The notes under the pieces were generated by a model that worked only from the letters and a program-made list of their open reading frames with translations, was not told the DNA's origin and made no database searches. The position numbers were made by a program, and so were the translations under genes. Below are positions 33,718-35,938 of a DNA stretch of 64,000 nt, piece by piece (the stretch's first letter is position 1; each line of letters begins with the position of its first letter). The DNA comes from a virus. Taxonomy: Duplodnaviria > Caudoviricetes. The stretch is from positions 1 through 64,000 of IMG/VR virus record IMGVR_UViG_2740892352_000003; one strand, given 5' to 3'.

Positions 33718-33865
33718 ATATAGGGTGATTACGCATCCTAAGTGTGAGATTATCCCAAGTAATTGGGGTTGATACTCACAAAGATAATTACTGAGTGTAG
33801 TGATTATCACCGTCCCAATAAATATTGGGTAAAAACATCTGAAATTTAAAAACACTTGGGATAAA
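33718..33865 (+). ncRNA. tracrRNA-like RNA, copy A
   Basis: Homologous to 35789-35938; four hairpins with covariation; anti-repeat segments TAAAAACATCT (33830-33840) and ATTTAAAAACA (33844-33854). Confidence 0.8.
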
Positions 33866-33934
33866 ACTTATGGACATAAGTAATTGCAATAATTTTAATG
33901 ATTTATGTTGTGCAAAAATGTGTATTTTACAGTA

Positions 33935-34361
33935 CTTTAAGAGTAACATAGGATGTTTTTAAATTTTTTTGGCACCCCCCATATTGGGATATAATAAAAT
34001 CTTTAAGAGTAACATAGGATGTTTTTAAATTTTGTATTAATGCTCAGCATCCCTGTAGGAGTCCATACTTTAAGAGTAACATAGGATGTTTTTAAATAAA
34101 TCTATAGTAGTCTCTTTTATTTCCATAACTCTTCTTTAAGAGTAACATAGGATGTTTTTAAATTTATTCATAACAGTATCTAATTTCATTGATGCAACAC
34201 CTTTAAGAGTAACATAGGATGTTTTTAAATTAAACTTCATTAAACAAAGAACCATCTATACAATGCTTTAAGAGTAACATAGGATGTTTTTAAATAATGT
34301 TATAGCCAATATACTCTCTCCTTATTTATATCTTTAAGAGTAACATAGGATGTTTTATAAA
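33935..34361 (+). CRISPR. CRISPR array 1: 7 repeats CTTTAAGAGTAACATAGGATGTTTTTAAAT, 6 spacers (35-37 nt)
   Basis: Repeats at 33935, 34001, 34068, 34134, 34201, 34266 and degenerate 34332. Confidence 0.97.
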
Positions 34362-34383
34362 ATTATAAAAGGAGGTGTTAAAG

Positions 34384-35769
34384 ATGATAAGTACAAGAAA
34401 AATAAAAGTAAGATGTGATGATAGTACATTTTATACATTCTTTAGGCAAGAACAAAGAGAACAAAATAAAGCTCTAAATATTGGTATAGGTATAATACAT
34501 GCTAATGCAGTATTACATAATGTAGACAGTGGAGCAGAAAAGAAACTAAAGAAAAGTATAGAAGGATTACAAGGTAAAATTGATAAACTTAATAAAGACT
34601 TAGAAAAAGAGAAGATAACTGATAAAAAGAAAGAGGAAGTATTAAAAGCGATTGAAACTAATAAAAAGATATTAGATGGAGAGAAGAAGGCTTTTAAAGA
34701 ATCAGAAGAATACAGAAAAGGAATAGATGAACTTTTCAAAAATACATACTTAAAATCTAATACATTAGACCATGTTTTAGATAGTATGGTTAATATTCAG
34801 TACAAAAGAACTTTAAGCCTAGTTACACAAAGGATTAAAAAAGACTATAGTAATGATTTTGTAGGAATTATAACAGGACAACAAAGTTTAAGAAACTATA
34901 GAAATGATAATCCGCTAATGATTAGTAATCAACAACTTAATTTCAAATATATAGATGATACTTTTTATTTGGATATTATGTGTGGATATAGGTTAGAGGT
35001 TGTTTTAGGTAAAAGGGATAATGAGAATGTAAATGAACTTAAATCAACTTTAGAGAAGGTTATAAGTAAAGAATATAAGGTTTGTGATAGTTCTATGCAG
35101 TTTGCTAAAAACAATAAAGATATAATATTAAATCTAGTTATAGACATTCCTCAAAACTCTAATGTATATAAACCAGTAGAAGGCAGAACCTTAGGTGTTG
35201 ATTTAGGTATAGCAGTTCCAATTTATATGTGTTTAAATGATGATACATACAAAAGAAAAGGTCTTGGTGACATTAATAACTTCTTAAGAGTCAGACAACA
35301 GATGCAAACTAGAAGAAGAAAACTTCAAAAAGACTTAACTCTTACAAATGGAGGAAAGGGTCGTAAAAAGAAAACTCAATTACTTGATAAACTACAAGAA
35401 AATGAAAGAAACTTTGTAAAAACATATTCTCATGCACTAAGTAAAAGAGTAGTAGAATTTGCTAAAAGTAATAAGTGTGAATATATAAACATAGAGAAAT
35501 TAACTAAAGATGGATTTGATAATATTATCTTAAGAAACTGGTCATATTTTGAATTGCAGAAAATGATTGAGTATAAAGCTGAAAGAGAAGGAATTGCTGT
35601 AAGATATGTAAATCCGGCATATACAAGTCAGAAGTGTTCAAGATGTGGTGAGATAGACAAGGAAAATAGACAGACACAAGCAAATTTTAAATGTACTAAA
35701 TGTGGATTTGAACTCAATGCAGACCATAATGCAGCTATAAATATAGCCAGAAGTATAGAATTTGTATAA
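34384..35769 (+). CDS. cas12f1: Type V-F effector Cas12f1-like (TnpB superfamily), 461 aa, RuvC intact
   Basis: AGGAGG RBS, ATG 34384; RuvC-I GVDLG, RuvC-II INIEKL, Zn ribbon CSRC/CTKC, RuvC-III NADHNAAINIA; GGKGRKKK and LRNWSY Cas12f1-type motifs; flanked by arrays; no TnpA. Confidence 0.88.
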   Translation: MISTRKIKVRCDDSTFYTFFRQEQREQNKALNIGIGIIHANAVLHNVDSGAEKKLKKSIEGLQGKIDKLNKDLEKEKITDKKKEEVLKAIETNKKILDGEKKAFKESEEYRKGIDELFKNTYLKSNTLDHVLDSMVNIQYKRTLSLVTQRIKKDYSNDFVGIITGQQSLRNYRNDNPLMISNQQLNFKYIDDTFYLDIMCGYRLEVVLGKRDNENVNELKSTLEKVISKEYKVCDSSMQFAKNNKDIILNLVIDIPQNSNVYKPVEGRTLGVDLGIAVPIYMCLNDDTYKRKGLGDINNFLRVRQQMQTRRRKLQKDLTLTNGGKGRKKKTQLLDKLQENERNFVKTYSHALSKRVVEFAKSNKCEYINIEKLTKDGFDNIILRNWSYFELQKMIEYKAEREGIAVRYVNPAYTSQKCSRCGEIDKENRQTQANFKCTKCGFELNADHNAAINIARSIEFV

Positions 35770-35788
35770 TTAAATAGATATAATATAA

Positions 35789-35938
35789 ATATAGGGTGAT
35801 TACGCATCCTAAATGTGAGGTAATCCCAAGTGATTTGGGATAGGCACTCGCAAAGATAGTTGTTAAATGTAGCAATTATCATCGTCCTAGCGAATCGCTA
35901 GGTAAAAACATCTGAAATTTAAAAACACTTGGGATAAA
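35789..35938 (+). ncRNA. tracrRNA-like RNA, copy B
   Basis: TATAAT at 35779-35784; same fold as copy A; anti-repeats 35903-35913 and 35917-35927. Confidence 0.82.

What the first reader, a model, noticed from the sequence alone, without database searches (positions are those of the whole stretch)
33718..35938. Two diverged tracrRNA copies reveal their fold by compensatory mutations
Copies A (33718-33865) and B (35789-35938) share an identical 5' 24 nt and 3' 38 nt, and internal differences preserve pairing. Examples: CCCAAT-AAAT-ATTGGG vs CCTAGCG-AAT-CGCTAGG; GATAATTACT/AGTGATTATC vs GATAGTTGTT/AGCAATTATC; TGTGAG/CTCACA vs TGTGAG/CTCGCA. The invariant 3' block holds two 11-nt anti-repeat segments (TAAAAACATCT, ATTTAAAAACA). 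A conserved ATCCCAAGT/ACTTGGGAT long-range pairing competes with a local hairpin. Inference: both copies are under selection as functional scaffolds.
Basis: partly seen in the sequence, partly recalled or inferred. Interest (0 to 1): 0.8.

Follow-up and report, generated by a model that had tools for sequence, protein, structure and literature searches.

The report
Twin Cas12f tracrRNA genes in prophage
A Clostridioides difficile prophage carries one miniature CRISPR nuclease gene (cas12f) flanked by two diverged copies of its helper RNA gene, each heading its own spacer array; the RNA fold matches that of already characterised relatives, so it is a well-supported but mostly ordinary finding.

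Summary
Copies A (33718-33865) and B (35789-35938) share an identical 5' 24 nt and 3' 38 nt. They differ at 27 of 150 aligned columns, and 13 of the 14 affected base pairs stay paired.

The layout is tracrA-array1-cas12f-tracrB-array2 in a C. difficile prophage. The 461-aa protein is a Cas12f of the CnCas12f1/RhCas12f clade.

A covariance model built only from C. difficile copies finds the experimentally used RhCas12f tracrRNA and RNAs beside other orthologues. Across 20 distinct sequences, 32 of 41 pairs change on both sides. So the four-stem fold is real but already known in kind.

Only the first anti-repeat segment (TAAAAACATCT) covaries with repeats. The second segment and the long-range helix are invariant in the ten aligned dual- and single-copy sequences (the G409 copy has one change in the second segment) and are not supported elsewhere.

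New points:
- Protospacers carry a 5'-TCA PAM (11 of 12 good matches).
- Seven of 11 related records have a single hybrid tracr plus array and no cas12f. This is what recombination between the two copies would leave.

Expression could not be tested.

The parts
33699..33704 (+). candidate -10 box TATAAT of tracr copy A, preceded by TGc (extended -10); follows the terminator hairpin of the upstream small ORF
   Evidence: read; the consensus scan did not list it, so it is inference only
33718..33865 (+). tracrRNA gene copy A. Stem 1: 33721-33727/33734-33740. Stem 2: 33743-33758/33763-33780. Stem 3: 33783-33793/33798-33808. Stem 4: 33814-33820/33823-33829. Anti-repeat: 33830-33840. Second repeat-complementary segment: 33844-33854. 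Tail: 33854-33862.
   Evidence: (176.8 bits)
33866..33934 (+). leader of array 1; its last ~25 nt share a motif (AATGTG.ATTTT) with leader B and with the L032 leader
33935..34361 (+). CRISPR array 1: 7 repeats CTTTAAGAGTAACATAGGATGTTTTTAAAT (last one degenerate) and 6 spacers
   Evidence: spacer at 34164-34200 matches phage CDMH1
34384..35769 (+). cas12f, 461 aa, RBS AAAGGAGG upstream
   Evidence: Pfam Cas12f1-like_TNB 7.8e-26 and OrfB_IS605 1.8e-8; PDB 8hr5 (CnCas12f1) 1.4e-101 and 9nzp (RhCas12f) 2.1e-80
35779..35784 (+). candidate -10 box TATAAT of tracr copy B, 10 nt after the cas12f stop codon
   Evidence: read; inference
35789..35938 (+). tracrRNA gene copy B. Stem 1: 35792-35798/35805-35811. 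Stem 2: 35814-35829/35835-35852. Stem 3: 35855-35865/35870-35880. Stem 4: 35886-35892/35896-35902. Anti-repeat: 35903-35913. Second segment: 35917-35927. Tail: 35927-35935.
   Evidence: (169.4 bits)
35939..36007 (+). leader of array 2
36008..37026 (+). CRISPR array 2: 16 repeats GTTGAAGAATAACATGAGATGTTTTTAAAT (last one degenerate) and 15 spacers
   Evidence: four spacers match C. difficile phages (one weakly, 7 of 35 mismatches)

Best explanation
This is a prophage-borne type V-F (Cas12f) CRISPR locus of C. difficile with two paralogous tracrRNA genes. Each has its own promoter-like -10 box and sits directly upstream of its own leader and array.

Each tracrRNA folds into the four-stem scaffold typical of the CnCas12f1/RhCas12f clade. 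It ends with an 11-nt anti-repeat (UAAAAACAUCU) that pairs with positions -14 to -4 of the repeat. The last three repeat bases (AAU) are then free, possibly to pair with AUU in the stem-1 loop as the short pseudoknot seen in other Cas12 guides.

The anti-repeat and the 3' 13 nt of both repeat types are identical, so either tracrRNA should serve either array. The copies are redundant in pairing but diverged in stems 2-4.

The Cas12f dimer loaded with tracrRNA:crRNA would cut DNA of competing C. difficile phages next to a 5'-TCA PAM.

The two tracr genes are direct repeats flanking array 1 and cas12f. Recombination between them deletes the nuclease and leaves a hybrid tracr plus array 2, a form that is common in related prophages.

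Shown: sequence, fold conservation, homology to a validated tracrRNA, anti-repeat/repeat covariation, PAM, and the deletion-type relatives.

Inferred: transcription, processing, cross-compatibility, activity, and the direction of the rearrangement.
For: Protein: Cas12f domains and best matches to the solved CnCas12f1 and RhCas12f structures.

Fold within the C. difficile family (10 sequences, 9 distinct): 41 pairs are 95.7% paired against 36.0-40.1% when partners are slid. Seven pairs change on both sides, against 0-2 slid. RNAalifold finds the same four stems without my structure.

Homology: model R1, built only from these copies, hits RNAs beside orthologous cas12f genes. These are L032 (61.8 and 51.6 bits), L042/L044/L043 (70.8, 70.8, 68.2 bits) and L030 (26.2 bits, E about 1e-4).

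L030 encodes a protein 100% identical to PDB 9nzp over 354 aa. The GG/CC of its stem-2 tip fall at G49, G50 and C57 of the published guide numbering with an offset of 3 (PMC13186708, section 8 read).

Over 22 hits (20 distinct): 95.0% paired against 37.1-41.2% slid, and 32 of 41 pairs changed on both sides against 8-13 slid, with 0 of 500 shuffles as high.

Anti-repeat covariation with the repeat:
- window: CATCT with GAGATG or AGGATG
- L007 copy B: CATCC with GGGATG
- L032: TAAATACATCC with GGATGTATTTA

In L042/L043 an intrinsic terminator follows this segment directly. That marks it as the 3' functional end.

Spacers and PAM: 5 of 6 protospacers in phage records have 5'-TCA. All 6 matches of 32 nt or more in the window's own record have it, against 1 of 18 short chance-level matches.

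The published C. difficile type I-B system acquires from CCN (PMC8406132, passages read).

Deletion-type relatives.
Against: No transcript evidence. No RNA run was listed as holding the locus, and the four RNA runs laid came from strains without it.

Promoters are read by eye; the consensus scan did not list them.

There is no terminator between either tracr and its array (0 found). The 3' ends are therefore unknown, and the tracr may be co-transcribed with the array.

Stem 1 never varies in the ten-sequence alignment. The identical 5' and 3' blocks could reflect gene conversion rather than selection.

The alignment behind one search was fitted to the model's structure and leans towards it.

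In copy B one pair (34-55) is broken. In the commonest A-type variant, pair 37-51 of the apical hairpin is C-A.

The proposed 3-bp pseudoknot with the stem-1 loop is weak and untested.
Confidence: 0.75

Rival explanations
1. Only one copy is the working tracrRNA: probably B, which lies just after cas12f as in the R. herbifermentans locus. Copy A would be a passenger left by duplication or recombination of a tracr-leader-array module, kept similar by gene conversion rather than by selection.
For: The identical end blocks with diverged middles fit conversion at the ends. Tracr-like second copies at array ends occur in other lineages and look degenerate: L032 copy 2 lacks the stem-2 tip, and the L050 second hit scores only 18 bits. 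Mosaic copies exist, such as G409. The anti-repeats are identical, so one copy would suffice.
Against: A-type copies vary among strains in a structure-preserving way. Stem 3 changes A-U to G-U, and pair 37-51 goes C-G to C-A to U-A in L009. The surviving tracr body in six of the seven cas12f-less records is A-type; G409 is a mosaic, mostly B-like. Copy A has its own -10 box and scores as high as B with the model.
Confidence: 0.15
2. The regions are not trans-acting RNAs. They would be structured leader or promoter elements of arrays used by the host type I-B system, or relics of a TnpB omega-RNA.
For: The repeats resemble clostridial repeat families: Rfam CRISPR-DR3 at 39.1 bits, just under the 41-bit gathering score. 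NCBI names the protein 'InsQ/TnpB family'. Copy B starts 20 nt after the stop codon, where an omega-RNA would lie.
Against: There is homology to the RhCas12f tracrRNA used in a solved complex. The anti-repeat covaries with repeats. The PAM is TCA, not the CCN of type I-B acquisition (PMC8406132). Guides come from arrays, not from flanking DNA.
Confidence: 0.05
3. The invariant 3' extension (second repeat-complementary segment plus tail) has a job of its own. It could act as a conformational switch in which the tail opens the stem-2 tip to form an H-type pseudoknot. Or, read as DNA, it could be part of the array promoter or leader.
For: AAATTTAAAAACACTTGGGATAAA is unchanged in all 10 aligned copies while the stems diverge. 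The tail/tip duplex is stronger than 499 and 500 of 500 shuffles. The L042 lineage lacks both the tip and the tail. No terminator separates the tracr from the array.
Against: There is no covariation: 7 of 9 pairs never vary. The L032 support is weak, with 49 of 500 shuffles as good. The local hairpin has its own compensatory change in L009. In RhCas12f the stem-2 tip is a hairpin bound by the second protein subunit (PMC13186708). RNAalifold pairs the tail with the anti-repeat end instead. In G409 the second segment has a substitution.
Confidence: 0.3

Closest known systems
RhCas12f (Ruminiclostridium herbifermentans) tracrRNA / guide RNA, PDB 9NZP
   Same: Homologous by covariance model (26.2 bits). 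It has four stems followed by the anti-repeat, a conserved stem 1 (GG.GAUU...CC) and a stem 2 with a GG/CC-containing tip. It is encoded just after cas12f and before the array, like copy B. The protein matches at 2.1e-80.
   Different: The Rh locus fragment shows one tracr and one array. Its repeat is different, and its stem-1 loop (GAUUUAG) can pair with 5 nt of the repeat end, against 3 nt here. It has no second repeat-complementary segment or tail. The protein is 415 aa against 461 aa here.
CnCas12f1 (Clostridium novyi), PDB 8HR5
   Same: It is the best structural relative of the protein: 1.4e-101 over residues 1-460. Papers describe a conserved guide core of stem 1, pseudoknot and stem 2 across Cas12f1 (PMC12255294, passages read).
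   Different: I could not see its guide sequence, because the structure paper is not in the library searched. Its C-rich PAM is stated from recall. The PAM inferred here is TCA.
Second tracrRNAs in CRISPR-Cas9 loci
   Same: Some Cas9 loci are reported to have evolved an alternative tracrRNA near the end of the array or next to cas9 (bioRxiv 10.1101/2020.09.02.279885, one passage read).
   Different: Those are type II systems. Here each copy heads its own array with its own repeat variant, around a single cas12f.
CRISPR arrays carried by C. difficile prophages (type I-B)
   Same: Prophage-borne arrays with spacers against other C. difficile phages (PMC4556805 in a search listing; PMC8406132, passages read).
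   Different: Those rely on the host type I-B Cascade and acquire from CCN. These arrays have a 30-nt repeat, their own nuclease and tracrRNA, and a TCA PAM. Cas12f in C. difficile mobile elements was noted in PMC10806358 (passages read), which does not mention tracrRNA (0 occurrences).

Membership tests
Cas12f (type V-F) tracrRNA, CnCas12f1/RhCas12f clade | Encoded beside a cas12f gene and a CRISPR array | tested here: met
   The layout is tracrA-array1-cas12f-tracrB-array2, all on the + strand.
Cas12f (type V-F) tracrRNA, CnCas12f1/RhCas12f clade | Anti-repeat near the 3' end, complementary to the 3' half of the repeat | tested here: met
   The 11-nt TAAAAACATCT pairs with repeat positions -14 to -4. 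It covaries with the repeat in L007 copy B and in L032. A terminator follows it directly in L042/L043.
Cas12f (type V-F) tracrRNA, CnCas12f1/RhCas12f clade | Scaffold homologous to an experimentally used tracrRNA | tested here: met
   Model R1 hits the R. herbifermentans tracr region. That locus encodes a protein identical to 9nzp. Across 20 distinct sequences, 32 of 41 pairs covary.
Cas12f (type V-F) tracrRNA, CnCas12f1/RhCas12f clade | Pseudoknot between the tracrRNA and the last bases of the repeat (R:AR-1) | tested here: inconclusive
   Only AUU (stem-1 loop) with AAU (repeat end) is available here. Orthologues with repeats ending GUAAAU have loops GAUUUAC or GAUUUAG. The general rule is taken from bioRxiv 10.1101/2025.01.20.633832 and PMC12255294 (passages read).
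Cas12f (type V-F) tracrRNA, CnCas12f1/RhCas12f clade | Transcribed as a small RNA and required for nuclease activity | not testable with these tools
   No RNA holder was listed. The four runs laid lack the locus.
Type V-F CRISPR-Cas effector (Cas12f1) | Protein of 400-550 aa with a RuvC and a zinc-ribbon (TNB) domain, related to solved Cas12f | tested here: met
Type V-F CRISPR-Cas effector (Cas12f1) | Array spacers match foreign DNA with a 5' PAM on the spacer-sense strand | tested here: met
   5'-TCA at 5 of 6 phage protospacers and at 6 of 6 long matches in G000.
TnpB omega-RNA (IS200/IS605) | RNA overlaps the 3' end of the nuclease gene and takes its guide from DNA flanking the element | tested here: not met
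   Copy B begins 20 nt after the stop codon. Copy A is 519 nt upstream of the gene's start codon, with array 1 between them. Guides come from arrays.
C. difficile type I-B prophage array | Spacers acquired next to CCN | tested here: not met
   TCA at 11 of 12 good protospacers, against CCN for acquisition in PMC8406132.

The most novel reading that the evidence does not exclude
The tracr-plus-array cassettes found without any cas12f may not be wreckage. One sits in a complete 58-kb provirus and one in a whole 4.3-Mb genome. They could be guide-only modules that load a Cas12f supplied by a co-resident or incoming cas12f-bearing prophage and turn it against that rival. One spacer of the cas12f-less G409 array matches the cas12f-bearing prophage of this window perfectly, beside a TCA PAM. 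The paired tracr genes would then act as a built-in recombination switch between an armed and a guide-only form.
Probability: 0.12. Interest if true: 0.75.

Novelty: new member of a known kind. Interest (0 to 1): 0.45.

Why it matters
It gives natural, sequence-diverse variants of a Cas12f guide scaffold: two paralogues in one locus, plus strain variants. These show which stems tolerate change and which single-stranded blocks do not, which is useful for guide engineering of compact editors.

It defines a probable 5'-TCA PAM for a Cas12f clade member whose named relatives are described with C-rich or T-rich PAMs.

It also shows that phage-against-phage CRISPR immunity in an important gut pathogen is not limited to the host type I-B system. 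The nuclease gene is easily lost by recombination between its own helper-RNA genes, which bears on how stable such prophage immunity is.

Tried and rejected
Expression. The look-up of sequencing runs listed no RNA holder. Read laying on X1, X3, X7 and X23 put no reads on either tracr, on cas12f or on the arrays. The exceptions were reads over 34164-34199 that run on into unrelated sequence (a prophage gene like the protospacer) and reads on the flanks. The strains lack the locus, so this says nothing on expression.

Rfam. Only sub-threshold CRISPR-DR3 hits on array 2, and no family for the tracr regions.

Megablast of the locus against phage records found only two spacer matches and no related locus.

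Promoter/terminator scan. 17 promoter-like sites against 28.4 expected and 0 terminators, so it was not informative.

Class-wide genome search. 3 of 399 genomes had a match, which was too sparse to help.

I therefore could not fetch the DNA of the 75-88% identical Cas12f relatives P0029-P0033, which would have been the best test of the long-range helix and of the second segment.

RNAduplex of whole tracrRNAs against repeats gave large-loop solutions that I did not trust beyond the two 11-nt segments. A 'head-to-toe' pairing of CATCCTA (5' part) with TAGGATG of repeat 1 exists, but it competes with stem 1 and has a mismatch with repeat 2, so I left it open.

I considered whether the conserved AUCA at the base of stem 3 mimics the (A)TCA PAM, as the Rh stem-2 tip mimics its PAM. 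A 4-mer is too short to argue from.

Supplementary files of the papers were not seen. The guide sequences of Rh/Os/Al3Cas12f (Supplementary Data 1 of PMC13186708) would allow a direct alignment.
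Full report
WHAT IS THERE

On the + strand the region reads as follows:
- a terminator of an upstream small ORF
- a TATAAT box (33699-33704)
- copy A (33718-33865)
- a 69-nt leader
- array 1: 7 repeats of CTTTAAGAGTAACATAGGATGTTTTTAAAT, 33935-34361
- a 461-aa ORF (34384-35769)
- a second TATAAT box (35779-35784)
- copy B (35789-35938)
- a 69-nt leader
- array 2: 16 repeats of GTTGAAGAATAACATGAGATGTTTTTAAAT, 36008-37026

In both arrays the last repeat is degenerate. Leaders are therefore on the left, and transcription runs left to right.

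The ORF has the Cas12f1-like TNB domain (7.8e-26) and the OrfB_IS605 domain. Its best solved relatives are CnCas12f1 (8hr5, 1.4e-101 over residues 1-460) and RhCas12f (9nzp, 2.1e-80). 9NZP is identified as RhCas12f in PMC13186708 (passages read).

The window is the first 64 kb of a 240,550-base IMG/VR provirus record. Near-identical proteins are named as C. difficile 'InsQ/TnpB family' proteins, and one variant was seen on 226 contigs. Cas12f in C. difficile mobile regions has been reported without any mention of tracrRNA (PMC10806358; 0 occurrences of the word).

THE OBSERVATION

Between A and B, 27 of 150 aligned columns differ. Twenty of these lie in the 82 paired columns and only 7 in the 68 unpaired ones. 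Of the 14 pairs affected, 13 remain standard pairs in both copies, six of them through changes on both sides.

Each copy folds at about -47 kcal/mol with z = -6, and 0 of 200 shuffles fold as well.

MORE COPIES

Pattern scans and a protein scan brought in the same dual arrangement from two IMG/VR records and from a C. difficile chromosome (L003, L004, L007). They also brought six single-copy loci. Of the 14 stretches, 9 are of this kind and 5 are GC-rich chance matches.

Ten copies (9 distinct) were aligned. On a four-stem structure of 41 pairs:
- 95.7% of cells are paired, against 36.0-40.1% when partners are slid by 1-3 columns.
- Seven pairs change on both sides, against 0-2 when slid.
- The covariation score exceeds all 500 shuffles. 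The count of double-changed pairs is reached by 37 of 500 shuffles.

RNAalifold, run without my structure, returns the same four stems. Stem 1 never varies in this alignment.

HOMOLOGY TO A KNOWN tracrRNA

A covariance model was built only from these ten copies (R1). Its hits:
- Two RNAs beside a 60%-identical cas12f in L032 (61.8 and 51.6 bits).
- One RNA directly upstream of 61-62%-identical cas12f genes in three metagenome contigs (70.8, 70.8 and 68.2 bits).
- Weaker hits beside more distant orthologues, including L030 at 26.2 bits.

L030 encodes a protein identical to PDB 9nzp over all 354 residues compared, so it is the R. herbifermentans locus.

The NSMB paper describes the Rh guide as four stem-loops with G49, G50 and C57 at the tip of stem 2 (PMC13186708, section 8 read). 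In the model hit the GG and CC of the stem-2 tip fall at 52-53 and 60-61, which is the same numbering with an offset of 3.

Over the 22 hits (20 distinct), the four stems are 95.0% paired against 37.1-41.2% when slid. Thirty-two of 41 pairs change on both sides, against 8-13 slid. This alignment was fitted to the model, so it leans towards the structure.

The fold is therefore real, and it is the fold already known for this clade.

THE 3' BLOCK

The first segment, TAAAAACATCT, behaves as the anti-repeat:
- In L007 copy B it reads CATCC where the adjoining repeat has GGGATG instead of GAGATG.
- In L032 it reads TAAATACATCC where the repeat has GGATGTATTTA.
- In L042/L043 a hairpin-plus-T-run terminator follows it at once.

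It pairs with repeat positions -14 to -4. This leaves AAU, which could pair with AUU of the stem-1 loop. Orthologues whose repeats end in GUAAAU have loops GAUUUAC or GAUUUAG. That fits the short repeat-end pseudoknot described for Cas12 guides (bioRxiv 10.1101/2025.01.20.633832 and PMC12255294, passages read), but I could not test it.

The second segment, ATTTAAAAACA, overlaps the first on the repeat and has no counterpart in L032 or L042. It carries a substitution in G409. I regard it as unexplained.

The tail ACTTGGGAT:
- It pairs with the 5' strand of the stem-2 tip much better than shuffles do (1 of 500 and 0 of 500 shuffles as good).
- Seven of its 9 pairs never vary, one varies on one side, and one has mismatches.
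- In L032 the equivalent duplex is reached by 49 of 500 shuffles.
- The competing local hairpin has its own compensatory change: pair 37-51 goes C-G to C-A to U-A in L009.
- In RhCas12f the stem-2 tip is a hairpin held by the second protein subunit and is needed for activity (PMC13186708).
- The L042 lineage lacks both the tip and the tail.

The pairing is a real sequence feature whose function is open.

TARGETS AND PAM

Spacers match C. difficile phages CDMH1, ES-S-0107-01, AR1074-1, phiCD211/phiCDIF1296T and phiCD6356.

Five of six protospacers have TCA immediately 5' on the spacer-sense strand. The sixth, with 7 of 35 mismatches, has TCG.

I then took 116 spacers (73 distinct) from 11 loci and searched them against the window's own 240-kb record. 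All 6 matches of 32 nt or more outside the arrays have TCA, against 1 of 18 matches of 15-23 nt.

A 5' PAM on this strand fits a type V effector reading repeat-then-spacer. It differs from the CCN at which the C. difficile type I-B system acquires spacers (PMC8406132, passages read).

cas12f-LESS RELATIVES

Six IMG/VR records (L009, L014, L017, L018, L020, L021) have the same flanks as the window. Between those flanks they hold:
- one tracr with an A-type body
- the B-type leader
- type-2 repeats
- the same degenerate last repeat

tblastn finds no Cas12f in any of the six. A whole-record search finds none in 5 of 5 searched, including a 58,288-base provirus rated complete.

A 4.3-Mb genome of the same family (G409) has one mosaic tracr (160 bits) and a 19-repeat array at the syntenic place. 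It has no Cas12f match at E up to 0.001. The same query does find the gene in G001.

So 7 of the 11 records of this kind that I saw lack the nuclease. The junction lies in or next to the shared 3' block. This is what homologous recombination between the two direct tracr copies would leave, although the direction of the event is inferred.

In G409 the anti-repeat has two mismatches to its own repeat, which fits relaxed constraint. Yet one of its spacers matches this window perfectly at 43316-43351, beside TCA.

OTHER LINEAGES

Other lineages also show a second tracr-like copy at the far end of the array: L032 has tracr-array-tracr-cas12f and L050 has cas12f-tracr-array-tracr. Tracr-leader-array modules therefore seem to be shuffled repeatedly in this clade.

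VERDICT

It is overstated on novelty of the fold and on the second anti-repeat segment.

Function and expression are untested. I place it as a new member of a known kind, with a modestly unusual locus design.

Noticed in passing
window 36763-36798 and G000:C1:127158-127193: An array-2 spacer matches the window's own 240-kb record 35 of 36, beside a 5'-TCA. The single mismatch is at spacer position 5, next to the PAM. It looks like an escape change in a co-resident large phage related to ES-S-0107-01/phiCD211, or the record joins two elements.
   Followed up: partly
window 43316-43351 (minus strand) and L131 (G409): A spacer of the cas12f-less array of genome G409 matches this prophage 36 of 36 with a 5'-TCA. 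A spacer of L003 matches window 1627-1662 at 35 of 36, also with TCA. Related prophages therefore target each other.
   Followed up: partly
   Followed up: partly
L032 2872-3002 (minus strand): The second, shortened tracr copy of L032 ends in TTGGAGAAATAAAAAATG. The cas12f ribosome-binding site and start codon therefore lie in its tail, and UUGGAG is complementary to CUCCAA of its own stem 2. This may be a link between tracr folding and cas12f translation.
   Followed up: no
L035, L040, L050 (orthologous loci): Shorter Cas12f orthologues in the same bacterial family and in phage contigs sit beside arrays with 29-nt repeats GTTTTATATTAACTA.GTG.TATGTAAAT. From recall, these look like the C. difficile type I-B repeat. 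Cas12f loci may share repeat families with host type I-B systems.
   Followed up: no
window 33900-33934 and 35975-36007; L032 leader: The leader ends next to the first repeat share a motif (AAGAATGTG.A.TTT) across both arrays and the 60%-identity orthologue. This hints at a conserved site for spacer integration, although no adaptation genes were looked for.
   Followed up: no
window 33805-33809 and 35877-35881: The base of stem 3 ends in AUCA in both copies and in L032b and L042 (GUCA in L032a), which is the same letters as the inferred (A)TCA PAM. It is too short to argue from.
   Followed up: no
window 34164-34199: RNA reads of four C. difficile runs that lack this locus cover just this spacer and run on into unrelated sequence. 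They come from an expressed prophage gene that carries the protospacer.
   Followed up: no
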